A DNA stretch of 43,213 nt. Source: Patescibacteria group bacterium. Its GTDB lineage: Bacteria > Patescibacteriota > Gracilibacteria > UBA1369 > LOWO2-01-FULL-3. Positions 4,401-38,488 of the stretch are shown here, one piece after another. The position numbers were made by a program, and so were the translations under genes. The notes under the pieces are model-generated. The model searched no databases and was not told the origin of the DNA. It saw only the letters and a list, made by a program, of their open reading frames with translations. Location: positions 1 to 43,213 of the forward strand of contig JAHIRL010000148.1 in the NCBI GenBank assembly GCA_018818755.1, read 5' to 3'. The stretch's first letter is position 1. Every line of letters starts with the position of its first letter.

Positions 4401-7400
4401 TTTGTTTCCCCAGTTAATGTTTAGTCCCACTCCCGGAAGTCCTCCTTTTGCGGTCCAGTCGATTCCGAAGAAAACCGTTCCGGATAAATCCACTCCGTCA
4501 ACATCGCCTCCGATTGTGGTTCCAAGTCCGGCTCCAAGTGTGGAAACTGCCGGTGTTGTTGTCCAGTAAACATTATCATTTTTTAGTAGTGTGATTGTAA
4601 GTCCGATTCCGGCCGCCACATTGGCGGTATGTTTTGCATCTTTGTCGTAACCCAGACTTAACTGTAGTGAGAATCCTTCGCCGAGAGGGATGTTTGCGCC
4701 GCCCCCGGCTCCTTTAAATTTGCCGTTTTCCATGCGGATATAGGCCATTGCTTGTAGGTTTCTGATGGCTTTTTCTACCACAGCTTTGGGCACGCCTTTG
4801 GAGATTAGTTCTGATTGCATTTTGGCTAGTGGCTCAGGAAGTCTTTTTCCCAATATTTCTGCCAGCTTCCTTTCTCCTTCACGATTTTGTAGTTCTTGTT
4901 TTTTCATTTCGCTGACCATGAAGCCAACTTTTAGGTAGTTTTTTGCGTTTGGATCGTTTTTTAGAGCGTTGAAGTAATTGTTAATTTCTGTTTGTGAGTT
5001 CGCAGAAAATTTTGGCAGGTTTAGTTGAGGAAAATCCTTTGTTTCTGCAGTTTCTGCACCGTGTTTTTTTTGCATTATTAGGATTTGTCGTCCCATTTTC
5101 ATTAGTTTTGTGATTCTGTTGTGGAGGTTCTCCATGTTGATTGGTCTTTTTTGTCCTTCTGCGCTTGGTATTGATTCTCCGCAAATTCCTTTTTCGTTCA
5201 GGAGTTTTAGTAAGGCCGAATCTCCATGGTAGTATTTTGTAAATTCGTCTCTGGTCATTACGGATTTTTTGCCGTTGAGATCGATCATTGTTAGTTTGTT
5301 CGGATCTGTATTACTTGCGCTTAGCAATCCGGTGAATGAATCCCAGGGATCTACTTTGCCGGTTTCTGTGAAAACATCGTGCAAGTTATCGATCACTGAG
5401 TCCTGATTGATTCCTTTGTATCCGGCATATAGTTGCGTTCCTTCCGGAGCTTCGGCGTAGCTAAGAGTTTTTAGTGCATCTAAAAGCTCAAAGGTTTTGA
5501 GGATCAATGGTTTCATTTTTTCATATTTTGCTCTTTCGTTTTTTGTTAATTCGATATTTCCTATTACTTTTGTGTGTAATTTTTTAAATTCTTCAACCAG
5601 TTTACTGCGGTGTTTTACTTCCGCTGCGTCGTAGTCTGTTTCGGTCAGTGTCTCTGTTCCTATCGCCTTTACATATTTTTCATCCAGGATTCTTGTAAAT
5701 GTTTTGGTGTTGATAAAGTCGTTGAAGTCTATTCTGTTGTTTCTTCCTTCACTTAAAAATTGAGCAACAAAGTTGGCGGCGTGGGTGGAGTCTATGCAGG
5801 TGAAAGGTTCTGAGGTGAGAATCCTTGTGACCGCTTCTGAGTTTTTGAAATAGATGTAGTTTTTGGCGATGTCTTCTTCGGCGTGTCTTGTGTGAACAAG
5901 ATGGGTGTGTCCGAAGGATTGATCCAGTGTGAAAACTTCTTCGGTGTAGTTTTCGAATTTTTTGTTTAGGTATTCATTTTCTTTTTGGGTTCTTTTGTTT
6001 TCTCTCTGTTTTTCGAAGGAGAGAGTTTTTCTTTTTTCTGTGAATTTTTCCAGATCTTGCACAGTTCTTTCTGCCGGAGTCTTTTTTGATCTTTGTGTTT
6101 CAAAAACTTTTTGTTTCACATCATCCGGCAAAAATGGCATGTTTAGGGTGATTCCGGAGTTGATTTGGTTTTGATTGATTGTGGGGTTGTTGTTGGCTTT
6201 TTTAAATTCTTCAAGACTGAAAGGGTTTTCTTTGTTTCCCCAGACTGTTTTTAGTTCTTTATAAACTTCTTTGATGCTTGTCTTTTTGCTTGTTGTGGCT
6301 ATTCCATTTTGTACTTTTGCATGGTTGAGATTGCGATTTCCCAGTGTGGCCTCAGCTATTTTTTTGTTTGCGATGGCCGAAATTCTGCTTTTTGACAGTT
6401 CGCCACTTTCGCTAACTTGTTTTTCCAGTTTGGTGATTCTTAAAATCAGTTCGGCATTGGATTTTCTAAAATTGCGAATATTGTATTGATTTTGATTGAT
6501 GCTGTTGTCATCGATGATTATCTGTAAAAGGTTTTGATAAACATTTAATCTAACTTTTTCGAGCAAAGTATGAATTGATTTGTTTTGATTCTCTGAGCTT
6601 TTCATGATTGTGTTGAGGAATTGCTCAGCTTTTGATTTGTTGAAACTTCTTTTTGTTGTACCTGGAGTGTTTTGAGGGGGGATATGAAACACGATTGATT
6701 CTCCTTCGAGAATAAAACCGGCGGCCTCAAGTTTTGTATCGGCTTTCATCAGTTCGAAGAAACTGCGCCCCATTTTGTCATTTGCTGAGGTATCGAGAAG
6801 TTGATGAAGGAGAATTTGCTTATTTTTTAGGCCTTCGGAAATGTTTTCGATTTTGATAATTCTGCTGTCCAATGCTTTTAGAATTCTTTTTGTGCTAAAT
6901 TTTTCGAGGTCTATTGTGGCAATTTTGGATTTAAATTTTTGTTTGAGAATTTTTTGAACTTCTCCGGCGGGGGACTCTTCTTTGAACAGAAGGTGCAGGT
7001 CGAAAATTGTGTTTGTGCTTAGCTTTTCAACCAGATTGCCTTTAGTGAAATCTTTGGGGCCTAAAATGTTTTGGTTGTATAGCTCGTGGATAGCTTTTGC
7101 TGAAAACCTGTTTGCGTAGTTTGTTAGTGCAGATGAAATAATTTCTGTTTTGATGTGATTGGCGATGTATTTTGAGAGTTTTTTTTCTCTTTCGCTTCCT
7201 CCTCTAAGTTCTTTTATCACTTCCAGAAGATCGGATAGGCGGGTTGGACTAACGAGAACTGTGTTGAGTAGTTTTTTTTGTTGTTCTTGTTTTTGGATTT
7301 TCTTCAAAAGAGTTTTTATGCTCTCTTTGCCTAGTTGAACTGCATTGATTGGTCCGCTTGGATTGATTTTTTCGAATACTTTTGAGCTTAAGTTGAATTT

Positions 7401-7724
7401 TTCAGCTTTTTGCAGAATTGTGTAAAAGTCTCTTTCGTTGAGATTTTTTAGTTTTATTTCCTGGTGAGAGTTAAGGCCTCGACCGCTTATTTTTTCTTTG
7501 TCGAGGAAGATTTTTAGTTGTTCTTTTGTTTTTAAGTTGGCGATTACAAATTCGGCGGCGGTTTGTTTTAGGGCTTCTTTGGCTGTTTCTCCAGTTTCAA
7601 TTCGACGCTTTTGTCTTTGCCTTTCTTTTAGGACTTCTCTGTTTTTGTTTATTTTGTTTTCTAGTTCACGGTTTATATCCAGTGAAGGTTTTGATTCAGG
7701 GTGTTTGTTTTGTTTGTGAGGCAT
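1410..7724 (-). CDS. giant hypothetical protein (2104 aa), ORFan
   Basis: Uninterrupted 6.3-kb ORF with ATG start and a consensus promoter 28 nt upstream. The N-terminal ~1000 aa are K/E/Q/N-rich and look helical. There is a Gly-rich amphipathic segment at aa 1005-1108 (nt 4401-4712) and a hydrophobic segment at aa 1213-1242 (nt 3999-4088). No signal peptide, and no P-loop or HExxH motif found by eye. Confidence 0.85.
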   Translation of the reverse strand: MPHKQNKHPESKPSLDINRELENKINKNREVLKERQRQKRRIETGETAKEALKQTAAEFVIANLKTKEQLKIFLDKEKISGRGLNSHQEIKLKNLNERDFYTILQKAEKFNLSSKVFEKINPSGPINAVQLGKESIKTLLKKIQKQEQQKKLLNTVLVSPTRLSDLLEVIKELRGGSEREKKLSKYIANHIKTEIISSALTNYANRFSAKAIHELYNQNILGPKDFTKGNLVEKLSTNTIFDLHLLFKEESPAGEVQKILKQKFKSKIATIDLEKFSTKRILKALDSRIIKIENISEGLKNKQILLHQLLDTSANDKMGRSFFELMKADTKLEAAGFILEGESIVFHIPPQNTPGTTKRSFNKSKAEQFLNTIMKSSENQNKSIHTLLEKVRLNVYQNLLQIIIDDNSINQNQYNIRNFRKSNAELILRITKLEKQVSESGELSKSRISAIANKKIAEATLGNRNLNHAKVQNGIATTSKKTSIKEVYKELKTVWGNKENPFSLEEFKKANNNPTINQNQINSGITLNMPFLPDDVKQKVFETQRSKKTPAERTVQDLEKFTEKRKTLSFEKQRENKRTQKENEYLNKKFENYTEEVFTLDQSFGHTHLVHTRHAEEDIAKNYIYFKNSEAVTRILTSEPFTCIDSTHAANFVAQFLSEGRNNRIDFNDFINTKTFTRILDEKYVKAIGTETLTETDYDAAEVKHRSKLVEEFKKLHTKVIGNIELTKNERAKYEKMKPLILKTFELLDALKTLSYAEAPEGTQLYAGYKGINQDSVIDNLHDVFTETGKVDPWDSFTGLLSASNTDPNKLTMIDLNGKKSVMTRDEFTKYYHGDSALLKLLNEKGICGESIPSAEGQKRPINMENLHNRITKLMKMGRQILIMQKKHGAETAETKDFPQLNLPKFSANSQTEINNYFNALKNDPNAKNYLKVGFMVSEMKKQELQNREGERKLAEILGKRLPEPLAKMQSELISKGVPKAVVEKAIRNLQAMAYIRMENGKFKGAGGGANIPLGEGFSLQLSLGYDKDAKHTANVAAGIGLTITLLKNDNVYWTTTPAVSTLGAGLGTTIGGDVDGVDLSGTVFFGIDWTAKGGLPGVGLNINWGNKVQRARFRTREEEISQKVGLKELWEYLDQEQSLSPKEKMQKIKSIPKVDAILKDLADEMPEFFNDPKLSETEKYSIFFKMLTMYKEKLQQNQVQKDFTWDDIVPGMSVGIGVMIAFALAQQYHLMPIGLAGILIKTNQRQIFIPKRSAKIKVLNQATKRNLHEQMQAKIENMEKGIGLNEWKLGTNAYLSTNGDVGVITSATESELLREKGTIDTYNDAFENVRVGIKPAGKSHELIVEDADDKVVQIYIDPELKNASVRLNPTDGKIYITGQLSDLVITRKNIEFNRPMASGTSNLQSTIYIRKRSSVKGDRSESWIEKNSSKMLRKFPGEKWETSTLDQLSDHPKLTNLGTLSQNELELQAKTPNLEKDLQSAVQFSRMRKALNPETIVIEGKDSAQILRALAAIENQGNFAKKIKKIMEEKNPEIRRKKCKSLILQRWQYEERHEISRTFPKLEVFLLNEKQIIEKVLQDHSYGKNAEQLREKTKSTAEIQAKLDTVYNYKIENITFEKALRSAIDDPIQVLQLIEKYIKDAQPDLIANLNDLEKQVFLNNAQNYLTVKYFTTLYPQKLPGNEEILNMPGLEKGSFITAKRTVGNKVIYLTNSYQAIIHDTVSGEYSSYLKRAWTKRGNTPEIKALREMIAKQRIEIKTANREVLKRLKGRRNYEKAEFAIHMQEAKERLKARGQSITSTAEAMSEKLMSNIYDNLITNVDELNYLDPPKSFLSLDVYEIERGAFLVSGSRRSRTKPQLTKFINYASSSRPDSLPYAHGFLEYSQTEYKQNLLRNDKTSKDLMRVLFEMGSPLPTKNLEKFIKESPLAKKLLATPAISYLLKGQDYENVLKAVEAIQEGKPIPQNSEASLRKFIQIVNKIRAAQIDNQVLELDSPDKSLKVRIDMRRSSVKSGAYSKCGNATFAVNDLGTIRIKKPVSGEMTLVDESIIGQGVENDDFGLFAIIGVKRKSKAKETQTKQVDKNIDKSPLKPTAGKVAPGTASDR

Positions 7725-28929: not shown

Positions 28930-29520
28930 ATGAATATACAGGATAAAAATATGCTATTGCAAAGGTATGCTTTGGGGCGTGAAGCCGAGCTTATTGAAGC
29001 CTATATTTTGAATGGGCCGACAGCTTTGAAGGTGGCGGAAGGTTTTAGTCCGGAACAGTGGCAGGTTATCTTTGATTATTTGGTTTTTGAGCATAATCTT
29101 TTGTATAAAACTGTTTTGAATAGTGATGATTTTTTTATTGATGAGTATGTGAAAAGTGGAATGGCTCATGTGCGTGAGATTTTGGATGTTGTTGATAATA
29201 AATATAATTTAATTTGGGAGATTTGTAAGGATTATATAATGATTTCACAGGATGGCCTTTATGCTCATGTGTTTGAGCATAGAAATAGATATATGACGGC
29301 TTTTAAGGCTCGAGGTGGGGATTTTGTGAGGAAAGTTTTGGGTATTTGGGATTTGAAATATACCCAAAGTTGGGAAAGGGTGCTTGATATTCTTTTGAAT
29401 GCGGTTTGTGATGGTTTGTTCAGCGAAAGAACTTTTGATAATGGTTTGGAAACTTTCACCAGGATTTGGAGTGGAGTGCGTGAGCATCGGCCTATTTCCA
29501 AGTTTTTAAAGTCTATTTAG
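28930..29520 (+). CDS. hypothetical protein (196 aa, helical, W/F/Y-rich)
   Basis: ORF with its own promoter, divergent from the efflux operon. No motif recognised. Confidence 0.6.
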   Translation: MNIQDKNMLLQRYALGREAELIEAYILNGPTALKVAEGFSPEQWQVIFDYLVFEHNLLYKTVLNSDDFFIDEYVKSGMAHVREILDVVDNKYNLIWEICKDYIMISQDGLYAHVFEHRNRYMTAFKARGGDFVRKVLGIWDLKYTQSWERVLDILLNAVCDGLFSERTFDNGLETFTRIWSGVREHRPISKFLKSI

Positions 29521-30351
29521 GACTTCCAGTGTGCAGATCAGTTGAATTATGCCTTTCATCCCGCTATGCCATGTTGGAGATTTTTTTAGTAATTCGCTTT
29601 TGGGTATGAGAATTGCGGCTAGTGCTTCAATTTGTTTTTTTGAGACTGTTCCGGTGAGGGTGAGAGCTTTTCCTTCGAGCATGGCTCTTAGGGTTTTGTT
29701 TTGGAGGGATTTTTTGATTATTTGCAGGCTGTATTTTGGTCTTTTTTTGAATATCAGGCTAAGGCCAAGTTCCATTTCTTTAGTGTTGTCTGTATCACCG
29801 ATTTCGAAATATTTTAACAAAAGGTCGGCATATTGTTCCTGGGCGTGGATGTATCCGAAGGAGTCTGGTTTTCTTTGGCTTAGTATTTTGAGAACAGATT
29901 TTTTGTTTTTGTATCCGCGTTTGCTCATATCGCGATGGACTTTCCATTTTTTACGGACATCTTCGTCCGGCGAGATAAAGAGTTTCAGGTCGAAAAGCCT
30001 GCGCATCAATTTGCGATGATAGGGATGCAAGCCGGTTATGATTATCAGTTTTTTGGGAGAGACTGCGGCTGGTGGGGTGAAAAGTCCGGTGGAATGGTCG
30101 TAAATCACTTTTTTTATGGTTTTACCTTCTTTGAGATCTTTTAGGTGATCTTCGGCCAGGCGCAGATTGTTGGCTTTGGGATTTAGGTGGGTTAGAGTTT
30201 GTTTGCGCATCTCGTACCTATTCCATTTGTGATAGGCGTCCATGCTGATTGTGAGGAGATTTTTTTCGTCGAAAACATCCAGAAGAAGTCTTCCGATTGT
30301 TCCTTTCCCGCTGCCGCTATCGCCTCCAAGTCCGATTATGAAAGGGTGCAT
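29506..30351 (-). CDS. prk: phosphoribulokinase homologue (class II, plant/cyanobacterial/archaeal type; PRK/uridine kinase family)
   Basis: Co-linear with class II PRK: IIGLGGDSGSGKGT (P-loop with Asp), SMDAYH, LNPKANNLRL...LKEGKTIKKVIYDHSTGLF...KLIIITGLHP, KKWKVHRDMSKRGY, SQRKPDSFGYIHAQEQYADLLL. Confidence 0.8.
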   Translation of the reverse strand: MHPFIIGLGGDSGSGKGTIGRLLLDVFDEKNLLTISMDAYHKWNRYEMRKQTLTHLNPKANNLRLAEDHLKDLKEGKTIKKVIYDHSTGLFTPPAAVSPKKLIIITGLHPYHRKLMRRLFDLKLFISPDEDVRKKWKVHRDMSKRGYKNKKSVLKILSQRKPDSFGYIHAQEQYADLLLKYFEIGDTDNTKEMELGLSLIFKKRPKYSLQIIKKSLQNKTLRAMLEGKALTLTGTVSKKQIEALAAILIPKSELLKKSPTWHSGMKGIIQLICTLEVLNRL

Positions 30352-30352
30352 T

Positions 30353-30375
30353 ATCGTTTGTTATGTTCAAACGAT
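30353..30375 (-). promoter_or_regulatory. intercistronic RNA hairpin filling the spacer before the prk start
   Basis: Perfect 8-bp inverted repeat ATCGTTTG / CAAACGAT with a 7-nt loop. Minus-strand RNA reads UAA-A-[AUCGUUUG AACAUAA CAAACGAU]-A-AUG. Confidence 0.5.
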
Positions 30376-30376
30376 T

Positions 30377-30607
30377 TTATTGTAGCTGATTCATTACATC
30401 TTGTGAACGGGAGTTTGCGTCGTTGAGGATCTGAATGATGTCTACATGTCCTGTAGAAGATCTTTCTACAATGGCTTGTGTTGGAGAGTTTTTTAAATCC
30501 GGATTTGCTTCAAGTTCAACATCGCTGGGGATGTGGTAGAATTTGCCATCAAAAGGAACTCCGTTTCCTTCTGTTGTTTCTATTGCAGGGGTTTTAATTC
30601 TTTGCAT
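30377..30607 (-). CDS. small hypothetical protein (76 aa, acidic/polar, no Cys)
   Basis: ORF 7 nt after the receiver gene and 25 nt before prk. Minus-strand-type codon usage. Confidence 0.5.
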   Translation of the reverse strand: MQRIKTPAIETTEGNGVPFDGKFYHIPSDVELEANPDLKNSPTQAIVERSSTGHVDIIQILNDANSRSQDVMNQLQ

Positions 30608-30614
30608 GGTTTTT

Positions 30615-31031
30615 TTAAAAAATCCGTGCTTTTATTTTAACATCTTTGAACATAATGTCAACGACAGGTTGGGGATTTTCTTTAATTTTTTCTATAATTT
30701 GTTTCAGCCCGTCTAATCCGACTTCGTATATTCCTGCGCATTTTGCTCTTACATCATCTGCGACAGCGTTGATATTGGCGTTAAAGGTGATTACGGGTAT
30801 TTCATATTTGAATGCTATTCTCGCAACTTCGTTGCCATTAGCCTTAGGCATATTGATATCTGTGATTACCAGAGATATTTCGTTTGCGGTTTTTTCTATG
30901 ATTTCGATTGCTTTTTCTCCGTTTGATGCCTCGAGGAAATCAATGTCTTCCTTTATTGCTCTTTTTAAACGCATTACTGCCATTTTCCTCCATGAATTGT
31001 CGTCGTCCGCGTATAGTATTTTGGGGGGCAT
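30615..31031 (-). CDS. stand-alone response-regulator receiver (CheY-like) domain protein
   Basis: KILYADDDNS acidic pocket, VITDINMP phospho-acceptor Asp, IPVITFNAN. There is no output domain and no histidine kinase in the window. Confidence 0.8.
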   Translation of the reverse strand: MPPKILYADDDNSWRKMAVMRLKRAIKEDIDFLEASNGEKAIEIIEKTANEISLVITDINMPKANGNEVARIAFKYEIPVITFNANINAVADDVRAKCAGIYEVGLDGLKQIIEKIKENPQPVVDIMFKDVKIKARIF

Positions 31032-31109: not shown

Positions 31110-31138
31110 TTGACAGGATGTTTGAAATGCTATTTAAT
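31110..31138 (+). promoter_or_regulatory. sigma70 promoter of the radical-SAM megaprotein gene: TTGACA-N17-TTTAAT
   Basis: TTGACA at 31110-31115, a 17-nt spacer, then TTTAAT at 31133-31138, about 25 nt upstream of the GTG 31163 / ATG 31166 start. Confidence 0.6.
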
Positions 31139-31162: not shown

Positions 31163-34100
31163 GTGATGTCAAAAGAGGGATGTCCGCATAATTGCGAGGT
31201 GCCTGCTAATGTGGAAAAAGTGTCTGAGGTTGGGCGTGGTGGTAGTGATGAGTTGCGTATTATAAAATCTAGCAATTCTGAGCTTAATCTGGTTTTGGAT
31301 GGATTGAATTCGCCTTTTCCGCATGCTCTTTTGGAATTTTCTAAAACCCTTTATCGGGATGATGTTACTTTTGATGAAGTTCAAAGACAGTTTGAGAAAG
31401 AGAATTTTGAGCTGGATAAGAAAAAATACCCTTATTCATCGGTTATGCTTAATACTGTTTTTTTAGACCAAGAAGGTTGGTTGAAATTGGATTGTACCAT
31501 GATCCAATATCGTTATAAGGCTGGGGATATTGTTAAGTGTAAGAATGAACATAGTAAGCATTATGGCAAATATCTTTTTGTTGAGGGTTTTCTTTATCGA
31601 TCTTTGAGTTGTTCCACTTTGGTTTATTTTAGTGTTTTAGATTCATCGGGGAATGTAGAGAAGCAGTTGTGTGAAGGATGGAGCATAGGGGCTTTTGAGG
31701 AGGAGTGTGAATTGGTTCATAGGTGGGGAGAGTATGATCCTGAGGAGTTTGGGGTTGATATTTCAAAAAGAGATAATGTTTTCGCGATTGATACTGTTAA
31801 AGGTGAGAGAAGAAGTAGTGAGGATGGGATGATAAGGGTTACTAATTCGGAATTTGTAGAAAATTTTTTTGAAGCAAGGAATTTTAATAAAATTTCTGCT
31901 GAAGACGAGCCGTTTAAACTGGAAAATGTCTTTGATGAGTATGTTGAAATGCTGATGCGTGTGGAATTTAAGGATTTACTTCAACGCTTGAATCACATTT
32001 TTCCGCTTAAAAATTATGATCGGATAATTGAGAAAGTTGATTTATGTAAGACTTCTGTGGAAATTCAGGATTATAACCATGTTTTCTTTGCCGGACTGAA
32101 GGAGAATTTTAAGGATGATTATAGTGATGAGCAGTTGTCCAAGATCGCCGATTATCTGAGGGAACAGAGGGAACGGTTTGATTTGGAGAAATTACTGAGA
32201 GAGTCTTGCACCTATATGCGGACTTCTGCAGAGCATAAAATCGGTGGCAACCTGAGACATGTTGAAGTTCCCAGGGAAAATATCATTGAAAAGTTCCCGG
32301 ATTTTGTGAATGATTTGGTTTTAAATGTGGCTAAGTATCTGGTTCCTTTGTTTGGAAGGAATGAGGATTATTATATGAATCCGGATTTGTTTCGAAAAAG
32401 ATCGACATATTTTTCAAACTTGCTGGGTGATTATGCTAATCCGTTGGATGCGGCGCGGCATGTTGTGGGAGTTGGGTTTAATGGGGTTAGTGAGATGTTT
32501 GATAGGGCAATGAATCGTGAATTTAAGTATTTTGTAAATGGAAAACCGGCTTTTGAAAAACCGGAAGAGCAGGAAGCTTATTATGAATTGTTTTTTGCGG
32601 ACAAAAAGACTGAACTGAGGGCGCATGTTTCTGATGCAATGTCTTTGATAAGAGAGATTTTTGATGAGTTTGATGTTACTGCTCTTATTATGAAAGAGGT
32701 TTATGGAGAAAATGGCTTTGAAATTCGGAGTGATATGAGTTTTTCGGATGTGAATAATAAGTTGTCTACTATCAATAAAAACCTGGCACAGGCTTTTTCC
32801 GGCTTGAAGAAGAAGTTTTTTGATCGTGCGGGTAGTGTTTTTGATAAAATTGATCCGGAATTGAAAAATTCTTTTAGTGGGATTTTTGACGCTATGGTGG
32901 ATTCTTTCTTTGCTAATTGTGGAATTAATGATGAAATTATCAAAACTGTTCATGGTATTTTTGATCAGTTTCTTAAAAATTCGGGGATGGATGTTTGTGT
33001 TGTTGAGGAACCGAAAACTTATCCGATAAGAACTTTGGAGTTTGATGGCGAGTTGGTTGATTGTCAGAGTGAAAAAGGTGGTTTTAAGGGTGGAGACATT
33101 ATTAGTATTAATAATCGTGGTTCTATTAAAAAATATCTTGTTGAAGGTATTGGAGTGAAGAATGGCCGTGTGTACATCAGAGATCTTACTTTTGGTGTTA
33201 CAGCCAAGACTGTTGATTATTTTGAGCTGAAAGACTTTGAGAATGATGATCCGCGGTATAAGGTGGAATTACTTGCCCGATGGGGGAATTATGATCCTGC
33301 TGATTATTCATATGGTCTTTTGAATAGAGTTGAAAATTCCAAGCCGGTTTATGAAGGGGTGCTTGGAGGGTATGATTACACCTTTTTGATGGATGATTTT
33401 ATGGGAAAGTTATTGGGGCCATTAAGGAAAATGGAGGTAGAGTTTAACGATCATGACCATAGAATTGATAATAAATTCGGAGAATATATTTGTGAGCATA
33501 TTATCAGGGATATAAAGTATACCGAGGGTAAGGCTTTGCTTCCAACCAGGCTGTTGTATTTTGATAGAGATATTTATTCGGTGTATCCCGCTGCTCCGCC
33601 AAGTTCTTCCGGGTCTAATGTGATTCGATTTGAGATTTCGACGGGTTGTAGTCACGGAAAATGTTCATATTGTAATTTGTACGAAAATGAAGATTATTCT
33701 TTGAAAAACTTTGAGGATTTTGAGAAGCATTTTGATTTGATTTGGGAGTATTTGGGAGCAAGGGTGATGAAAAAACAGTTTAAAAGAGTATTTTTGAGTG
33801 GAGGTAACGGTTTATCTATGAAAACGGATGATCTGTGCAAGATTTTGAAGTATGCTCGTAAAAATTTGGGGGTTTTGAGGAGGATTGAATCATATGCGAA
33901 TACTTTGGCTATAAAAAAGCATGGAGAGGAAGGTTTGAAAAGGTTAAAAGAAAGTGGATTGAATATGGTTTATTGGGGAGTGGAAAGTTGTAATGATGGT
34001 GTTCTTAAATTGAGCAGGAAAGGATATAGGTCAAAATCTGTTTCGCAGGCCGGGAAAATGCTTAATGATGCCGGTATTGGGATGTCGATTACTGTTATGC

Positions 34101-34438
34101 CGGGATTGGGTGGAGAGAAATTTTCTGAGCGGCATGCTGAAGATACAGGAAAAATATTGGGAGAGTTGGCGCCTGAGTTTTTGACTTTGATGAGTGTACA
34201 TGCTCCGGGCAGTCTTTGGGAGCAGGACATGAATGATGATATGGATAATAGGGCTTTGAATGAGAACGAACTGAAGGAAGAAATTTTGCTTATGCGAAAA
34301 GTTTTTTTACAAACAGCCAAGAAAAATCCTAACGGTTTCAAAAGGAAGGTCAGTATTGCTGCTCATGGTCCGAATATAACTCCCGTTTCTAATAATCCAA
34401 CAAGTTTTCAAACCAGAATTGAATTGGAGAAAAAGTAG
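31163..34438 (+). CDS. 1091-aa protein: unknown ~800-aa N-terminal region plus a C-terminal radical-SAM domain
   Basis: GCSHGKCSYC (C829-x4-C834-x2-C837, nt 33647-33673), FLSGGNG (nt 33791-33811), GVESCND, VMPGLGGE. The N-terminal part has no recognisable motif but contains two copies of a ~95-aa module. The true start may be ATG 31166. Confidence 0.85.
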   Translation: MMSKEGCPHNCEVPANVEKVSEVGRGGSDELRIIKSSNSELNLVLDGLNSPFPHALLEFSKTLYRDDVTFDEVQRQFEKENFELDKKKYPYSSVMLNTVFLDQEGWLKLDCTMIQYRYKAGDIVKCKNEHSKHYGKYLFVEGFLYRSLSCSTLVYFSVLDSSGNVEKQLCEGWSIGAFEEECELVHRWGEYDPEEFGVDISKRDNVFAIDTVKGERRSSEDGMIRVTNSEFVENFFEARNFNKISAEDEPFKLENVFDEYVEMLMRVEFKDLLQRLNHIFPLKNYDRIIEKVDLCKTSVEIQDYNHVFFAGLKENFKDDYSDEQLSKIADYLREQRERFDLEKLLRESCTYMRTSAEHKIGGNLRHVEVPRENIIEKFPDFVNDLVLNVAKYLVPLFGRNEDYYMNPDLFRKRSTYFSNLLGDYANPLDAARHVVGVGFNGVSEMFDRAMNREFKYFVNGKPAFEKPEEQEAYYELFFADKKTELRAHVSDAMSLIREIFDEFDVTALIMKEVYGENGFEIRSDMSFSDVNNKLSTINKNLAQAFSGLKKKFFDRAGSVFDKIDPELKNSFSGIFDAMVDSFFANCGINDEIIKTVHGIFDQFLKNSGMDVCVVEEPKTYPIRTLEFDGELVDCQSEKGGFKGGDIISINNRGSIKKYLVEGIGVKNGRVYIRDLTFGVTAKTVDYFELKDFENDDPRYKVELLARWGNYDPADYSYGLLNRVENSKPVYEGVLGGYDYTFLMDDFMGKLLGPLRKMEVEFNDHDHRIDNKFGEYICEHIIRDIKYTEGKALLPTRLLYFDRDIYSVYPAAPPSSSGSNVIRFEISTGCSHGKCSYCNLYENEDYSLKNFEDFEKHFDLIWEYLGARVMKKQFKRVFLSGGNGLSMKTDDLCKILKYARKNLGVLRRIESYANTLAIKKHGEEGLKRLKESGLNMVYWGVESCNDGVLKLSRKGYRSKSVSQAGKMLNDAGIGMSITVMPGLGGEKFSERHAEDTGKILGELAPEFLTLMSVHAPGSLWEQDMNDDMDNRALNENELKEEILLMRKVFLQTAKKNPNGFKRKVSIAAHGPNITPVSNNPTSFQTRIELEKK

Positions 34439-34550: not shown

Positions 34551-34627
34551 TGGTACGCCCGACAGGATTCGAACCTGTAACCCCCGGTTCCGAAGACCGG
34601 TGCTCTATCCAGTTGAGCTACGGGCGC
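34551..34627 (-). tRNA. tRNA-Arg (anticodon UCG), CCA encoded
   Basis: Reverse complement folds as a cloverleaf: GCGCCCG TA GCTC AACTGGATA GAGC A CCGGT CTTCGGA ACCGG GGGTT ACAGG TTCGAAT CCTGT CGGGCGT A CCA. All stems pair (G1-U72 wobble), the T-loop is TTCGAAT, and anticodon positions 34-36 are TCG. Confidence 0.93.
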
Positions 34628-34791: not shown

Positions 34792-37700
34792 TTATGCCTC
34801 GTCAGTGCGTTCTTTTTTCTTTTCGGCTCTAAGTGTCCATTTAATAAGCAATGGAGTCGCTGTGAATATTGATGAATAAGTACCGACGATTGTTCCCAAA
34901 GTTAGAGCCAGAATGAAGTAAAAGATCGATGGGCTTCCCAATAATAATACTGCAACAAGTGTGAATAATGTTGAAAGAGAAGTGTTGATTGATCTTGTGA
35001 AGCTTTGGCGAAGGGCTTGGTTGGCCACATGCTCCAAAGTTTCGTCTCTTTCTTTTGTAATTAGTCTTTCACGCAGTCTGTCGAAAATAACGATGGTGTC
35101 GTTTACGGAATAACCGAATACTGTGAGCATCGCGGTTATGAAAAGGGCGTCGATTTCTACATTGAAGAATTGTCCGAGGATAACAAAAACTCCTGTGACA
35201 ATGAGCATGTCGTGGGCTAGTGCGGCGATTGCGCAGGCTCCGAAACGCCATGGGCTTACCTCTTTTGGGACTTTTCTAAAGGCGATTGCTACATAGATAA
35301 TGATCATTACCAATGCGAATATTATGGCAATTACAGCTTTTTCCAGTAGAGTTTTTCCGATAACCGGCCCTATTGTTGTAAATCTTGGTTCTGTGAATTC
35401 CGGAAGAGTCTCTTTCATTTTTTCTACGATGGTTTTGTGGGCTGATGAATCCAGGTATTTGGTTTTTACAACGAAGGAGTTTTCTTCTGATGCTAGTATC
35501 TGGATGTTTGTTAGATCTATTTTCGTTGTAGGGTCTGCGCTAATTACGGTTTCTCCTTCAACAGTTTCTTTCGGGCTTTCATTTACAACTGCAATGGATC
35601 CGTCTTGCATTTCTTCTTCGATGCTAACAAGTGTGTCTGCCAAAACTTGTTTTTCTACCGGTTCTGAAAATTTGAATTCCATCAAGCTTCCTCCCGTAAA
35701 GTCCAGTCCGAGGTTGAGACCAAAGATGATGATTGCGGCTAGGGAGGCAGTTACGAGTCCACCGGATACTGTGAGCCAAGTTTTTGAATTTTTGATGAAG
35801 TTGAATTTGTTTTCTTTTTTAGCCGGATTAACTCCAAAGGCTTTTAGGTTTTCGGCAAGTTTTGTTCCGATGAAGCTTTGCAATAAAGTTTTTGTAACAG
35901 TAATTGCTGTGAACATGGAGACCAAAATACCTGCGGCCAGGTTGAAGGCAAATCCTTTGATGATTGAAGAACCGAAGTAGAAAAGGATTGCACATGTTAG
36001 GAGTGTTGAAAAGTTTGAATCTCGAATGGCGCTCCAGGCTCTATTAAATCCGGATTCGACAGCGGATTTATATGGTTTTCCTTCTTTTAGTTCTTCCTTA
36101 AATCTTTCGAAAATAAGGATGTTGGCATCTACGGCCATACCTATTGATAAGATAATTCCCGCTACACCAGCAAGTGTTAGCACTATTCCGGTTTTGAGTA
36201 GGAATATTAGGAAGAAGAATCCCACACAACTCAGTAGGAAGGAAAGAGTTTTTTCCCATGCGGAATCTTTGTTGTTGATGATTTTAAATACCAGAAATCC
36301 AAATACGGCTAGTGCTCCTAGCAAGGCAATTCCCACATGTAGCTCGGATTTTATTAGGAAAAGGAAAATTGAGGCATAAACAACTAGAGCGATTGCGGCC
36401 ATAATTCCGGCGGCTCTGTAATATAGAACCATGAAGATTATTACTAATGCTAGGCCGATAAGGCCTGCTGTAAGACTTTTTGTAAGAGCTTCGTGTCCGA
36501 GAGTGGCTCCGATTGTATATTCTCCGGTTAAGACGATTGGAGCGGGGATTGCGCCTGTGTTTAGATCTCGTGCCAGGTTTTTTGCTTCGTCTGTTGTGAA
36601 TTCACCGGTGATTTGTGCCGATCCTCCTGCAATTTTCCCTTGTACTTCAGGGGCGGAAATCTGATCTCCTCCCACGAAAATCGCTACTCTTTTCCCGACA
36701 TTTCTTTCTGTTATTTCCTCGAAAAGTTTGGCTCCTTCATCGTTAAATTGGATTGTTACATATGGTTGGTAGAACTGATCAAGTTGAACATCCGCATGAA
36801 TAAAGTGTTTTCCTGTTAATCCGGTTTCTTTCCAGGGATTTGGAAGAGTTGAGTAAGTTAGTAATTCGTATTTGTATTGTTTTTCTTTGATATCAGTAAG
36901 GACTTCGTCGGCTTTAATGATGTGGTATCCAAATTTAGTGTTGACGATGTCACTTATATCTCCGCTTTTTTCAAAGGCCAAAGCGGCTTGTTCGAAATCG
37001 TAAACATAAGTTCCGTCTCCTGTTACGGGGGTGGAAAGTCTTCCTCCCTGGTCTTTATTGCTGGCATCGTCCGAATTTTCTTGGGCTAGAATTGCGAAAT
37101 CTTCTCCTTGATCCACTTTTGCTTTTATTTCTTTTGCAAGTTCGTAGGCTTCTTCTTTTGTGCGGGTAATACTTTCATCGGCTTGTTCACTTCCCGCATA
37201 AGCTATTAAAATGTGGCTTACTGCTACTTCTTTTTCATCTTTTACGGCTTCGTCAACATCAACGAGTTTTACAATTCCATAACCGCTATCTTCGACGGCT
37301 TGTCCGGATTCGTTAATTACAAAAGTTCCGCCGGTTTCTATTAGGCCGTAAAACTCACCAATCTCCATTGTTGTAAGCTTTTCTTTTAAATAAGAGGGGA
37401 GTTCGCTTTCAAAGACATATTCCGAAGTATCGTGTTTTGCGAGTCCCGGAAAGGCCTGAACCTCTTCCTGTGCGACAACTTCGTAATCTGCTCCTTCTTT
37501 GATTTTATTTAGTGTTTTTTGGGCGTCCTCATGGATACGATCTTTTTCTTCGGGATCTATTTGTTGTTTTTCTTCTTTAAATTCCAATTGGATGGTTTTT
37601 CCGACTGTTGCTTTTGCTTTTTCCAAACTGACTAATTTTTTCTGATCGTCCGTTAGTTCTCCCACTTTCACTCCTTCTTTTCCGAGGTATGTATCTACAT

Positions 37701-38061
37701 CTTCCTGGCTTATTGTAGCTGATTCTGCTAGTTCTACCACAATGTGGTTTTCACCGGCAATTTCTGATGTGTAAATGTTTGGTTCGGCAACTCCCAGTCC
37801 GTTTACACGCCTTTCAATAACTTCCAGCACACCATCAATAATGTCTTCCCGATCGGCTTCGGGCACTTTTCTCAGATCAATCTTATAATCCAGTTGGGAT
37901 CCTCCCTGAAGGTCTAGCCCTAGGTGAATTTTGGTGTTTGTGATTGAGTCCGGCAGAAATGGAAGAATTGTTTTTTGAGTTTGTTGGGGGAGACTGTAAA
38001 AACCAAAGACCAATACTAATAGAAGTGTGGCGATAATTTTCCAGTTTAGAAATCTTTTCAT
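34792..38061 (-). CDS. secDF: SecD-SecF fusion protein with a parvulin-type PPIase module inserted in the SecD periplasmic P1 domain
   Basis: SecD motifs are GLDLQGG, NGLGVAEPNIY..ENHIVVEL, then LTGKHFIHA...VAIFVGGDQISAPEV...ITGEFTTDEAKNLARDLNTGAIPAPI plus TM bundle. The SecF half is FNFIKNSK...GLDFTGG...FDRLRE. Between the SecD motifs sits a canonical parvulin domain: SHILIAY...GEDFAILAQENSDDASNKDQGG...FEQAALAF...GDISDIVNTKFGYHIIK. I prefer ATG 38061 (MKRFLNWK...) over the track start 38139, which overlaps the upstream gene. Confidence 0.88.
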   Translation of the reverse strand: MKRFLNWKIIATLLLVLVFGFYSLPQQTQKTILPFLPDSITNTKIHLGLDLQGGSQLDYKIDLRKVPEADREDIIDGVLEVIERRVNGLGVAEPNIYTSEIAGENHIVVELAESATISQEDVDTYLGKEGVKVGELTDDQKKLVSLEKAKATVGKTIQLEFKEEKQQIDPEEKDRIHEDAQKTLNKIKEGADYEVVAQEEVQAFPGLAKHDTSEYVFESELPSYLKEKLTTMEIGEFYGLIETGGTFVINESGQAVEDSGYGIVKLVDVDEAVKDEKEVAVSHILIAYAGSEQADESITRTKEEAYELAKEIKAKVDQGEDFAILAQENSDDASNKDQGGRLSTPVTGDGTYVYDFEQAALAFEKSGDISDIVNTKFGYHIIKADEVLTDIKEKQYKYELLTYSTLPNPWKETGLTGKHFIHADVQLDQFYQPYVTIQFNDEGAKLFEEITERNVGKRVAIFVGGDQISAPEVQGKIAGGSAQITGEFTTDEAKNLARDLNTGAIPAPIVLTGEYTIGATLGHEALTKSLTAGLIGLALVIIFMVLYYRAAGIMAAIALVVYASIFLFLIKSELHVGIALLGALAVFGFLVFKIINNKDSAWEKTLSFLLSCVGFFFLIFLLKTGIVLTLAGVAGIILSIGMAVDANILIFERFKEELKEGKPYKSAVESGFNRAWSAIRDSNFSTLLTCAILFYFGSSIIKGFAFNLAAGILVSMFTAITVTKTLLQSFIGTKLAENLKAFGVNPAKKENKFNFIKNSKTWLTVSGGLVTASLAAIIIFGLNLGLDFTGGSLMEFKFSEPVEKQVLADTLVSIEEEMQDGSIAVVNESPKETVEGETVISADPTTKIDLTNIQILASEENSFVVKTKYLDSSAHKTIVEKMKETLPEFTEPRFTTIGPVIGKTLLEKAVIAIIFALVMIIIYVAIAFRKVPKEVSPWRFGACAIAALAHDMLIVTGVFVILGQFFNVEIDALFITAMLTVFGYSVNDTIVIFDRLRERLITKERDETLEHVANQALRQSFTRSINTSLSTLFTLVAVLLLGSPSIFYFILALTLGTIVGTYSSIFTATPLLIKWTLRAEKKKERTDEA

Positions 38062-38071
38062 TTTTTTAAAG

Positions 38072-38488
38072 TTAATTATTATTTTGTTGAGATAGTTGGC
38101 GATCCAGGTCTTCGTTGTTGCCTTTTCCGTCTCTGCCATAGTCGTCGGAAAGTTTTACAACATCGTCCAGTTCGGGCGTAGAAACCTCAAAAATCTCGCT
38201 ATCTTCAAGAGCTTCAAGGCGGTGGATAGTATAGGGATGAACATCAATTTTGTCACCTTCGTTTAAAATTTTGTCTTGCAGGTTGTTTTCATCTGTGCCG
38301 TAAGTAAATTTCACTTTTCCTTTATAGATGTACTGAGTTTCGATTTTTTTCTCGTGATATTGCAGGCTGTAGCGGTGTCCTTTGCTTACTTTGAGGATTT
38401 TGCCAGCGTATTTGTCGTTGTGGGCAAACCAGATTTCTTCGCCCCAGGGTTTTGGTTTTATTTGAACTTGATGCGGGGAATCGTTCAT
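38072..38488 (-). CDS. cupin-domain protein, type II phosphomannose isomerase C-terminal-like
   Basis: KPWGEEIWF..., GHRYSLQYHEKKIETQYIYKG, and IHRLEA... resemble the cupin half of bifunctional ManC/PMI. Confidence 0.75.
   Translation of the reverse strand: MNDSPHQVQIKPKPWGEEIWFAHNDKYAGKILKVSKGHRYSLQYHEKKIETQYIYKGKVKFTYGTDENNLQDKILNEGDKIDVHPYTIHRLEALEDSEIFEVSTPELDDVVKLSDDYGRDGKGNNEDLDRQLSQQNNN

What the first reader, a model, noticed from the sequence alone, without database searches (positions are those of the whole stretch)
31163..34438. 1091-aa megaprotein: unrecognisable ~800-aa N-terminal region fused to a radical-SAM core with a non-canonical CX4CX2C motif
Only about 270 aa near the C-terminus (about nt 33620-34230) look like a radical-SAM core: GCSHGKCSYC, FLSGGNG (GGE-type SAM motif), GVESCND and VMPGLGGE. 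The three Cys are the only ones nearby, and their spacing is C-x4-C-x2-C rather than C-x3-C-x2-C. From memory, that spacing is known from a minority of enzymes such as archaeal Elp3. I see no SPASM/twitch Cys cluster after the core and no B12-binding motif before it. The preceding ~800 aa match nothing I recognise. The gene has its own near-consensus promoter (31110-31138). Its T/G-ending codon usage matches resident plus-strand genes, so it does not look like a recent insertion. It sits back-to-back with a receiver-domain/PRK operon. An enzyme of this size and architecture with no assignable substrate is the best candidate for new biochemistry in the window.
Basis: partly seen in the sequence, partly recalled or inferred. 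Interest (0 to 1): 0.78.

Follow-up and report, generated by a model that had tools for sequence, protein, structure and literature searches.

The report
Rare giant radical-SAM enzyme, novel N-terminus
This is a real, resident gene of a Patescibacteria (CPR) bacterium that fuses an Elp3-like radical-SAM catalytic domain to about 800 residues built from two previously undescribed domain types; only 17 sequence clusters of this kind exist among 1.84 billion, and its substrate is still unknown.

Summary
ORF 31163..34438 (+) encodes a 1091-aa protein. Only residues ~809-1091 are recognisable, as a radical-SAM core with Cys829-x4-Cys834-x2-Cys837 and no SPASM/twitch, B12 or GNAT domain.

New findings:
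1. The x4 spacing is a clade trait. It is shared by unnamed stand-alone radical-SAM proteins (~290-410 aa) and by archaeal Elp3, the closest solved relative (profile E 3e-17). Within the fusion family it drifts to x3 or x9.
2. The N-terminus is modular. A ~105-aa beta-barrel module occurs twice (internal repeat, E 9e-8). One ~210-aa conserved all-helical domain carries invariant or near-invariant E268, D271, K359, Y416 and H433. A variable helical spacer lies between that domain and the second barrel.
3. Neither module matches Pfam, PDB sequences, PDB folds or viral folds.
4. An exhaustive HMMER search finds 17 clusters, 13 of which have the radical-SAM domain. Named members are from Patescibacteria, Peregrinibacteria/Peribacteria and WOR-1.
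5. Collinear orthologues from independent assemblies rule out a chimera, and codon usage is native.
6. The receiver/PRK neighbours are not conserved. One lineage places the gene among pyrD/pyrK/pyrC.

Verdict: a new variant of a known kind. It is very probably an active radical-SAM enzyme with a built-in substrate-handling apparatus. The chemistry is unassigned.

The parts
31110..31138 (+). Putative sigma-70-type promoter, TTGACA-17 nt-TTTAAT, 25 nt upstream of the start codon
   Evidence: Read directly. Not listed by the consensus scanner because the -10 hexamer lacks A at position 2. No Rfam element lies in the short leader.
31163..34438 (+). CDS of the 1091-aa protein, stop codon included. 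The GTG at 31163 or the adjacent ATG at 31166 may be the start.
   Evidence: Collinear orthologues at 23-38 % identity over the full length. Native codon usage.
31310..31363 (+). Short conserved N-terminal motif (residues ~50-67, SPFPHALLEFSKTLYRDD; family pattern [YF]P..[FL]..[LI]....[YF].[ED][DE]). Residues 1-49 are not conserved.
   Evidence: Alignment A4, columns 101-127.
31448..31777 (+). Beta-barrel module, copy 1 (residues 96-205). Motifs LDC, AGDIV (GD-box-like), FVEGF, RWGEYDPEEFG.
   Evidence: Internal repeat, blastp E 9e-8. Module HMM i-E 3.6e-30. AF2 predicts a 6-stranded beta unit at pLDDT ~75-89. Only weak, non-significant fold hits, to SH3-like barrels. Translation.
31907..32542 (+). 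Conserved all-helical domain (residues 249-460). E268, D271, K359, G361, P395, Y416, A430 and H433 are invariant or nearly so. Present in every family member with an intact N-terminus.
   Evidence: Alignments A4, A5, A6. AF2 pLDDT 85-94. No match in PDB sequences, Foldseek PDB or BFVD or Pfam. Translation.
32543..33016 (+). Variable helical spacer (residues 461-618). Absent from the short family members P0050, P0052, P0053 and P0055.
   Evidence: Alignment A4, columns ~720-900. Helical in both AF2 runs, though the full-length run has low confidence.
33017..33337 (+). Beta-barrel module, copy 2 (residues 619-725). Motifs VDC, GGDII, LVEGI, RWGNYDPADYSYG.
   Evidence: Translation.
33338..33586 (+). 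Conserved linker before the radical-SAM core (residues 726-808), including LLYFDRDIYSVYP with invariant D803 and nearly invariant D801 and Y805.
   Evidence: Alignment A4. Present in both long and short family members.
33587..34435 (+). Radical-SAM domain of an Elp3-related CX4CX2C clade (residues 809-1091). Includes the APPSSSG pre-motif, which corresponds to RPPSEA in the stand-alone relatives, and the conserved tail IAAHGPNITPVSNNPTSF.
   Evidence: PF04055 E 3.2e-14. Stand-alone relatives at 26-36 % identity. Clade profile against archaeal Elp3 6IAD, E 2.9e-17.
33647..33673 (+). [4Fe-4S]-binding motif C829-x4-C834-x2-C837 (CSHGKCSYC), with the usual aromatic residue (Y836) before the last Cys
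   Evidence: Invariant in all 13 aligned members and in all 12 stand-alone relatives aligned.
33791..33811 (+). FLSGGNG, a GGE-type SAM amino-group-binding motif with Asn in place of Glu
   Evidence: G880, G881 and N882 are invariant in the nine closest members.

Best explanation
The gene encodes a self-contained, multidomain radical-SAM enzyme.

Shown:
- The C-terminal ~280 residues are a radical-SAM core of an Elp3-related clade. The three cluster cysteines, the aromatic residue before the third Cys, a GGN (GGE-type) motif, and the GxE and MPGLGG strands are all conserved across the family.
- The N-terminal ~800 residues are an ordered, conserved array: a short N-terminal motif, beta-barrel module 1, a conserved helical domain, a variable helical spacer, beta-barrel module 2 and a conserved linker.
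- The minimal family architecture is barrel + helical domain + linker + radical-SAM.
- The gene has no conserved partner gene.

Inferred:
- C829, C834 and C837 hold a [4Fe-4S] cluster that reductively cleaves SAM to a 5'-deoxyadenosyl radical.
- The radical abstracts a hydrogen from a substrate or co-substrate presented by the N-terminal apparatus. The logic is that of Elp3, where a second domain of the same polypeptide binds the co-substrate and hands it to the radical-SAM site.
- The conserved helical domain, with polar invariants on five different helices, is the best candidate for that second binding or catalytic site.
- The duplicated small barrels are docking modules for a macromolecular partner, either a protein substrate or the electron donor.

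The identity of the substrate is not established.
For: Radical-SAM core:
- PF04055 E 3.2e-14, above the Pfam cut-off.
- Cys triad invariant in 13 family members and in all 12 stand-alone relatives aligned, of 44 found.
- Clade profile hits archaeal Elp3 at E 2.9e-17, and that Elp3 itself has CX4CX2C.

Fusion is ancient and obligatory:
- 12 of the 15 further cluster representatives found with an N-terminus-only profile carry the same C-terminal radical-SAM domain.

N-terminus is under constraint and modular:
- Repeat E 9e-8. There are 21 module copies in 17 proteins.
- The helical domain has invariant E268, D271, K359, G361, Y416, A430 and H433 and a confident AF2 model at pLDDT 85-94.

Self-contained:
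- No neighbour is shared between the window, L001, L007, L008, L014, L027, L032 and L033.

Real resident gene:
- Native codon usage, a housekeeping neighbourhood, and collinear orthologues from independent assemblies in three candidate phyla.
Against: - No biochemical data exist for any member or for the stand-alone sister clade.
- The SAM motif is GGN rather than GGE, and two divergent members (P0054, P0056) alter it further.
- One relative (P0057) appears to have lost the Cys motif, so some members may be non-catalytic.
- The two-site, Elp3-like logic is an analogy only. The helical domain has no detectable similarity to GNAT or to any cofactor-binding fold.
- The invariant residues could be structural rather than catalytic.
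- The AF2 model coordinates could not be inspected, so I could not check whether the invariants cluster in a pocket.
Confidence: 0.55

Rival explanations
1. It is an RNA (tRNA or rRNA) modification enzyme, a functional analogue of Elp3 or MnmL/YhcC. The radical-SAM domain modifies a nucleoside, and the N-terminal barrels and helices act as the RNA-binding platform.
For: The closest solved relative of the radical-SAM clade is Elp3. The weak NCBIfam hits include Elp3 and, for the stand-alone relatives, MnmL/YtqA. Some stand-alone relatives carry PF16199 (Radical_SAM_C), a domain I recall as also present in Elp3 and YhcC-type proteins. SH3-like and KOW-like barrels often bind RNA (established knowledge). 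A lone gene in a housekeeping context is typical of RNA-modification enzymes.
Against: The N-terminal modules are acidic in most members: barrel 1 pI ~4.7-6.4, helical domain pI ~4.6-6.7. That is the opposite of what an RNA-binding surface needs. No GNAT/KAT domain is present, and all Elp3/MnmL model scores are far below cut-off (19 against 350 bits). The family is extremely rare and evolves much faster than its neighbours, unlike core translation-related enzymes.
Confidence: 0.15
2. It is a protein- or peptide-modifying radical-SAM enzyme. The duplicated small barrels recognise a protein substrate, or the enzyme's own conserved N-terminal motif or C-terminal tail. The radical-SAM domain then installs a modification such as a methyl group, a crosslink or an epimerisation.
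For: SH3-like, Tudor and BAH barrels are classical peptide-recognition modules, and the weak fold hits include BAH and Tudor-like readers. The next-best solved relatives after Elp3 are MgmA (9CCB), which methylates a protein, and OxsB. Acidic surfaces suit a basic protein partner. The conserved terminal motifs, [YF]P..F..L....Y.ED at the N-terminus and IAAHGP.VTP...NP..F at the C-terminus, could be cis-substrates or latches. Fast evolution suits co-evolution with a partner.
Against: No conserved adjacent precursor peptide or partner gene exists. There is no SPASM/twitch or RiPP-recognition element. The fold matches are not significant (best E 0.16 in PDB, 0.018 in BFVD). The module occurs in no other ORF near the gene.
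Confidence: 0.15
3. It acts on a pyrimidine or other nucleotide, or on an enzyme of nucleotide metabolism. Examples are a radical-SAM partner or maturase of the PyrD/PyrK flavo-iron-sulfur dihydroorotate dehydrogenase, or a viperin-like nucleotide modifier.
For: In the Peregrinibacteria locus L007 the gene lies between carA-pyrB-pyrC and pyrD-pyrK. In L028 it abuts pyrK-pyrD-pyrC and a PRTase. In WOR-1 it lies 1.2 kb from NrdR and two NrdD genes with no NrdG called nearby. In the window a udk/PRK-family kinase is 0.8 kb away. GuaA and CarB are near P0056.
Against: L007 and L028 are syntenic by descent. Their PyrD, PRTase and PyrK share 61, 64 and 48 % identity, so they count as one observation. 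L027, L032, L033 and L008 show no such genes. By my rough estimate, about one nucleotide-metabolism gene is expected by chance in any +/-8 kb of a ~1 Mb genome. There is no similarity to viperin or NrdG, and no PADLOC hit.
Confidence: 0.1
4. It is a non-catalytic or chaperone-like radical-SAM-fold protein in the manner of HemW, or a rapidly decaying lineage-specific gene. The large N-terminus would serve a structural or scaffolding role.
For: The best NCBIfam hit is to HemW, though far below cut-off. A HemW-like gene lies near one member (L032) and next to the Desulfobacterales stand-alone relatives. The protein evolves fast. One relative lacks the Cys motif (P0057). The SAM motif is GGN rather than GGE.
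Against: The Cys triad and other core motifs are invariant over 23-38 % identity. No HemN_C domain is present. Full-length intact ORFs are maintained in at least three candidate phyla spanning GC 34-60 %. Codon usage is native and there are no frameshifts.
Confidence: 0.05

Closest known systems
Elp3 (tRNA U34 carboxymethylation; radical-SAM + KAT/GNAT), especially archaeal Elp3 (PDB 6IAD, 6IAZ, 6IA8)
   Same: It is the closest solved relative of the radical-SAM domain: profile E 2.9e-17 over the second half of the barrel, and single-sequence E 0.005. It has the same CX4CX2C spacing (CPHGKCIFC against CSHGKCSYC). The drift of the first spacer within this family (x3, x4, x9) resembles, from my own recollection, the difference between archaeal and eukaryotic Elp3. 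It is also a single polypeptide in which a second domain is fused to the radical-SAM core.
   Different: There is no GNAT/KAT domain. The domain order is reversed, with the extra domains N-terminal here. The TIGR01211 score is 19 bits against a cut-off of 350. The extra domains are acidic and match nothing known. The taxonomic range is tiny, whereas Elp3 is very widely distributed.
Unnamed stand-alone CX4CX2C radical-SAM clade (~290-410 aa; for example P0003, P0018 from Marinisporobacter, P0028 from Desulfosalsimonas propionicica). JGI auto-labels them 'YgiQ/UPF0313'.
   Same: These are the nearest sequence relatives of the C-terminal domain, at 26-36 % identity and E down to 2e-30. They share CX4CX2C, a proline-rich pre-motif (RPPSEA against APPSSSG), VFL..[GD][AG]N, the GxES motif, VMPGLGG and an (S/A)xH motif after the core.
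   Different: They lack the entire ~800-aa N-terminus. Most have an extra ~80-aa C-terminal extension that the fusion proteins lack. They are themselves uncharacterised, with no NCBIfam model above cut-off and no consistent neighbours. They therefore transfer no function.
Class B (B12-dependent) radical-SAM methylases such as MgmA (9CCB), OxsB (5UL2), PhpK and HpnJ
   Same: They give weaker but consistent similarity of the core, including the cluster-binding strand (profile E ~4e-10; sub-threshold NCBIfam hits). Like this protein, they have a large N-terminal accessory domain preceding the radical-SAM core.
   Different: No B12-binding (Rossmann, PF02310) domain or motif is found in the N-terminus. 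The N-terminal fold is predicted as a beta-barrel plus an all-alpha domain.
HemN/HemW family
   Same: It gives the best, but far sub-threshold, NCBIfam hit for the core (TIGR00539, 30.6 bits).
   Different: The cut-off is 205 bits. There is no HemN_C domain, and HemN and HemW use CX3CX2C (my own knowledge).

Membership tests
Radical SAM superfamily (PF04055) | Sequence match to the core half/three-quarter TIM-barrel model above the curated threshold | tested here: met
   PF04055 at 53.9 bits against a cut-off of 29.5, residues 824-989. The same holds for 12 further family representatives.
Radical SAM superfamily (PF04055) | Three-cysteine motif (canonically CX3CX2C) near the start of the core, with an aromatic residue before the third Cys, conserved among orthologues | tested here: met
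   C829-x4-C834-x2-C837 with Y836. The three Cys are invariant in 13 members. The spacing is x4 in ten, x3 in two and x9 in one. This is a variant spacing, as documented for other subgroups in RadicalSAM.org (PMC9477430).
Radical SAM superfamily (PF04055) | SAM-binding motifs (GGE-type motif and downstream strands) | tested here: inconclusive
   FLSGGNG has Asn in place of Glu. GVES and VMPGLGG are conserved. The sequence is compatible with SAM binding, but binding cannot be shown with these tools.
Radical SAM superfamily (PF04055) | Reductive cleavage of SAM at a [4Fe-4S] cluster | not testable with these tools
   Requires anaerobic purification, UV-vis/EPR and a 5'-dA assay.
Elp3 (TIGR01211) | Whole-protein score above the NCBIfam cut-off | tested here: not met
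   19.1 bits against a cut-off of 350.
Elp3 (TIGR01211) | C-terminal GNAT/KAT acetyl-CoA-binding domain fused to the radical-SAM domain | tested here: not met
   No GNAT hit in Pfam or NCBIfam. The protein ends ~100 residues after the core.
HemN/HemW (TIGR00539; HemN_C PF06969) | Score above cut-off and a HemN_C domain | tested here: not met
   30.6 bits against 205.4. No PF06969.
B12-dependent (class B) radical SAM | N-terminal cobalamin-binding Rossmann domain (PF02310) | tested here: not met
   No hit in the query or in any of the 12 N-terminal cores at E <= 10. AF2 predicts a beta-barrel plus all-alpha, not alpha/beta.
SPASM/twitch radical SAM | Cys-rich auxiliary-cluster domain after the core | tested here: not met
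   Only C892 and C943 follow the triad, and neither is conserved.
Stand-alone CX4CX2C clade (unnamed) | RPPSEA-type pre-motif, CX4CX2C, VMPGLGG and (S/A)xH after the core | tested here: met
   Alignment A3. The C-terminal domain is a diverged member or sister of this clade. The clade has no known function.
RadicalSAM.org Megacluster-4-11 (the only CX4CX2C cluster named in PMC9477430) | Membership in that sequence-similarity-network cluster | not testable with these tools
   The paper gives only the motif and no sequences are to hand. Elp3/YhcC are in Megaclusters 2-4 and 2-5, so the mapping is uncertain.
Prokaryotic viperin / known defence radical-SAM systems | Match to PADLOC models | tested here: not met
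   No PADLOC hit. No relatives in IMG/VR. No PHROG hit.

The most novel reading that the evidence does not exclude
The N-terminal ~700 residues comprise two previously undescribed domain families. One is a GD-box-containing small beta-barrel. The other is an all-alpha domain with an invariant E/D/K/Y/H constellation. Together with an Elp3-like core they would form a new class of two-site radical-SAM enzyme confined to CPR and WOR-1 bacteria. The helical domain would bind or activate a co-substrate that is handed to the 5'-deoxyadenosyl radical site, catalysing a reaction not yet known. That reaction might act on a pyrimidine nucleotide or on the PyrD/PyrK system, given the Peregrinibacteria gene neighbourhood.
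Probability: 0.2. Interest if true: 0.75.

Novelty: new variant of a known kind. Interest (0 to 1): 0.5.

Why it matters
Radical-SAM enzymes are a large source of unusual chemistry, and new reactions have often come from members with odd accessory domains.

This family offers a compact, self-contained test case. It is one polypeptide with no partner genes, an Elp3-type core, and two accessory domain types that no sequence or fold library on hand recognises. It comes from the poorly understood, reduced-genome CPR bacteria.

Defining its substrate would give functions to two new domain families. It would give a first functional foothold for the larger stand-alone CX4CX2C clade. It would also say something about what ultra-small symbiotic bacteria spend more than 3 kb of a ~1 Mb genome on.

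On the other hand, the family is tiny and fast-evolving, and nothing ties it to a long-standing open question. It is a worthwhile but not exceptional target.

Tried and rejected
1. AF2 of the full-length protein with a 2-sequence alignment gave mean pLDDT 36. It was unusable and was not sent to Foldseek.
2. The third word-indexed homologue search, using the N-terminal core alignment A5, returned nothing, not even the query's own family. This is unexplained and the search was wasted.
3. The search for related loci with A5 failed because no stretch was conserved enough. It was repeated with A6.
4. Conserved-neighbour hypothesis (receiver / 76-aa / PRK; the 196-aa ORF matching a same-length ORF in L001): rejected. 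No neighbour homology was found by blastp or phmmer.
5. Glycyl-radical activase for the adjacent NrdD pair in WOR-1: considered only. NrdD is not near the gene in any other locus.
6. Phage or defence origin: rejected. No IMG/VR relatives, no PADLOC hit, no PHROG hit, native codon usage.
7. Riboswitch or leader RNA: none in Rfam. The leader is only ~25 nt.
8. Remote homology of the N-terminus was sought by:
   - PDB profile search;
   - a permissive Pfam scan of all members;
   - Foldseek on PDB and BFVD;
   - hhalign against the radical-SAM clade.
   All were negative. The PsaE/NdhS (ferredoxin-docking SH3) and double-psi-barrel (GD-box) resemblances are too weak to use: E 0.16-1, and E 0.002 with non-significant domains.
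9. Pyrimidine-cluster association: downgraded after showing that L007 and L028 are syntenic by descent.
10. Assigning the clade to RadicalSAM.org Megacluster-4-11 is not possible from the paper text.

Full report
OBSERVATION

The ORF is there exactly as described: 31163..34438 on the + strand, 1091 codons from a GTG. The public record for the same contig starts one codon later at the ATG and calls the product simply 'radical SAM protein [Patescibacteria group bacterium]' (P0001).

Pfam recognises only residues 824-989 (PF04055, E 3.2e-14). Nothing credible matches residues 1-820. NCBIfam gives only far-sub-threshold hits to HemW, STM4012, PhpK and Elp3.

The quoted motifs are real: GCSHGKCSYC at nt 33644-33673 and FLSGGNG at nt 33791-33811. 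The cysteines are C829, C834 and C837, and only C892 and C943 follow them. So there is no SPASM/twitch cluster, and no B12 or GNAT domain is detected.

The promoter-like TTGACA-17-TTTAAT at 31110-31138 exists. It lacks the conserved A2 of the -10 box and was not listed by the scanner.

Codon usage matches the other + strand genes (r = 0.97) and not the - strand genes (r = 0.13). The gene is therefore resident.

The window is otherwise an ordinary CPR chromosome segment. It carries a Mur ligase, TruB, MraY, DnaG, RpoD, GreA, PriA, PyrG, an RND pump, SecDF, iPGM and a prepilin peptidase.

THE RADICAL-SAM DOMAIN

A search with residues 789-1091 alone finds 44 stand-alone proteins of 290-410 aa at 26-36 % identity. 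All 12 that were aligned share C-x4-C-x2-C, preceded by an RPPSEA-type motif (APPSSSG in the query), and share the downstream strands. They have no NCBIfam assignment and no consistent neighbours.

A profile of this clade hits archaeal Elp3 (6IAD) at E 2.9e-17, then MgmA (9CCB; identified in PMC11796369) and OxsB at ~4e-10.

The x4 spacing is thus a clade trait rather than a peculiarity of this protein. RadicalSAM.org already notes several variant spacings, including one CX4CX2C cluster (PMC9477430).

THE N-TERMINUS IS MODULAR

Self-comparison reveals a ~105-aa module present twice, at residues 96-205 and 619-725 (blastp E 9e-8). Both copies are also present in the orthologue P0002.

An HMM built from the copies finds 21 copies in 17 proteins, and none in any other ORF of the window or of the fetched loci. 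The consensus is ΦDC..FGΦ+AGDIΦ ... ΦΦEGY ... +WGxYDPxxΦGΦ.

Between the copies lie two helical regions:
- A conserved ~210-aa helical domain (residues 249-460). E268, D271, K359, G361, P395, Y416, A430 and H433 are invariant or nearly so.
- A variable helical spacer (residues 461-618), which short family members lack.

A conserved linker (LLYFDRDIYSVYP) joins the array to the radical-SAM core.

HOW RARE, AND WHERE

An exhaustive HMMER search of 1.84 billion cluster representatives with an N-terminus-only profile finds 17 proteins. Of the 15 new ones, 12 end in the same radical-SAM domain. One (P0060) is just two tandem barrels. P0057 seems to have lost the Cys motif.

Within the family the first Cys spacer is x4 in most members, x3 in P0055 and P0056, and x9 in P0048.

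Named sources are Patescibacteria (this window), Candidatus Peregrinibacteria and Peribacteria, and candidate division WOR-1. Loci span GC 34-60 %.

No relatives occur in IMG/VR, PADLOC or PHROGs. The literature search found nothing on the family.

Collinear full-length orthologues from independent assemblies exclude an assembly chimera.

STRUCTURE

AF2 on the full-length protein with two sequences failed (pLDDT 36).

AF2 on the conserved core (residues ~98-474) with 12 sequences gave mean pLDDT 75.8. It predicts a six-stranded beta unit, a disordered linker and an all-helical domain at pLDDT 85-94.

Foldseek found nothing significant in PDB (best E 0.16) or BFVD (best E 0.018). The weak hits cover only the ~70-residue barrel and are all small SH3-like barrels: PsaE, NdhS, BAH and tiny phage proteins. 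The helical domain matches nothing.

Other homology tests were equally negative:
- Profile searches of PDB sequences found nothing for the core.
- For the barrel, they found only a GD-box-type local match to designed double-psi barrels.
- A permissive Pfam scan of all 12 cores showed no recurring family.
- hhalign against the radical-SAM clade was negative.

Within the reach of these tools, both N-terminal domain types are undescribed. AlphaFold DB was not available.

CONTEXT

The receiver, the 76-aa ORF, the PRK/udk kinase and the 196-aa ORF next to the gene in the window have no counterparts in any other locus.

In Peregrinibacteria (L007) the gene sits between carA-pyrB-pyrC and pyrD-pyrK. 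In L028 it abuts pyrK-pyrD-pyrC and a PRTase.

Those neighbours are 48-64 % identical between the two loci, while the megaproteins share only 23-29 %. The two loci are therefore syntenic by descent and count once.

Other loci show different neighbours:
- L001/L009: NrdR and two NrdD genes.
- L027: BrnT and a methyltransferase.
- L032: a HemW-like gene and a GH3 glycosidase.
- L033: an unknown 307-aa ORF overlapping the start.
- P0056: housekeeping genes.

The nucleotide-metabolism theme is a lead, not a finding. The same comparison shows that the protein evolves much faster than adjacent housekeeping genes. Within the protein, the N-terminus (27 % identity to P0002) evolves faster than the radical-SAM domain (48 %).

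MECHANISM

Shown:
- An intact, conserved radical-SAM core of Elp3-like type.
- A conserved, modular N-terminal array.
- No obligatory partner gene.

Inferred:
- The Cys triad binds a [4Fe-4S] cluster that cleaves SAM to the 5'-deoxyadenosyl radical.
- The conserved helical domain, with polar invariants on five helices, is a second binding or catalytic site that presents a substrate or co-substrate, as the KAT domain does in Elp3.
- The barrels dock a macromolecular partner.

The N-terminal modules are acidic in most members. This argues against a generic RNA-binding platform and mildly favours a protein or small-molecule substrate.

Confidence that it is an active radical-SAM enzyme with a built-in substrate-handling apparatus is ~0.55 for the model as a whole, and higher (~0.85) for the core chemistry alone.

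The rivals are RNA modification (0.15), protein or peptide modification (0.15), nucleotide or pyrimidine-linked chemistry (0.10) and a non-catalytic or chaperone role (0.05).

COMPARISON AND NOVELTY

The protein works like, and is related to, the Elp3 radical-SAM domain, but it fails Elp3 membership: no GNAT domain, and 19 against 350 bits. It also fails membership of HemN/HemW, class B and SPASM radical-SAM families.

Its C-terminal domain belongs with an unnamed stand-alone CX4CX2C clade. The fusion architecture and both accessory domain types are new. The appropriate label is 'new variant of a known kind'.

Interest is moderate at 0.5. This is a clean and rare target with two unknown domains in CPR bacteria. 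However, uncharacterised radical-SAM fusions are numerous, and no specific new reaction is yet indicated.

Noticed in passing
window 1-43213 (whole window): Strand asymmetry is extreme. Third codon positions of + strand genes are T/G-rich (T 0.44, G 0.31), and those of - strand genes are A/C-rich (A 0.41, C 0.30). Synonymous codon usage of the two gene sets is essentially uncorrelated (r = 0.07). Cumulative GC skew rises almost monotonically across the window. Codon 'preference' here is dominated by strand-specific mutational bias.
   Followed up: partly
window 1410-7724 (-): A 2104-aa ORF with no Pfam hit at E <= 0.001. It is a second, even larger unannotated protein in the same window.
   Followed up: no
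window 34792-38139 (-): A fused SecD-SecF protein (1115 aa) carries a PpiC/parvulin-type peptidyl-prolyl isomerase domain (residues ~288-412, PF13616 E 7.5e-25) between the SecD N-terminal P1 segment and the P1 head. This would be a translocon subunit with a built-in foldase.
   Followed up: partly
window 29506-31031 (-): A divergent three-gene unit: an orphan receiver domain (138 aa, no output domain), a 76-aa ORF with no hits, and a 281-aa PRK/uridine-kinase-family protein. The kinase scores just under the NCBIfam phosphoribulokinase subfamily cut-off (222.8 against 236 bits). It is not conserved next to the megaprotein elsewhere.
   Followed up: partly
window 34551-34627 (-): tRNA-Arg (anticodon TCG) lies ~115 nt downstream of the megaprotein stop, on the opposite strand. 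No intrinsic terminator was predicted between the stop codon and this tRNA gene.
   Followed up: no
L001 10480-15189 (same as L009 4673-9382), candidate division WOR-1: NrdR is followed by two tandem NrdD-family (PF13597) genes of 710 and 699 aa, with no NrdG-like activase called nearby. The megaprotein orthologue lies 1.2 kb upstream.
   Followed up: no
L004 6001-8306, L030 6001-8306 (Desulfobacterales); L032 135-1148: The stand-alone CX4CX2C radical-SAM gene is translationally coupled (stop/start overlap) to a HemW-like radical-SAM gene in two Desulfobacterales loci. A HemW-like gene also lies 1.8 kb upstream of the megaprotein orthologue P0048. This may be a functional link or a coincidence.
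   Followed up: no
P0060 (292 aa), P0058 (791 aa), P0057 (574 aa), metagenomic proteins: The N-terminal modules also occur without a functional radical-SAM domain. P0060 is two tandem barrel modules only. P0058 is the helical region plus a barrel. P0057 keeps the helical domain but has a remnant radical-SAM start that lacks the Cys motif. The contigs were not examined, so truncation by contig ends is not excluded.
   Followed up: partly
L033 2231-3154 (+): A 307-aa ORF with no Pfam hit overlaps the start of the megaprotein orthologue P0055 by 4 nt, which suggests an operon partner. It has no homologue in the other loci.
   Followed up: partly
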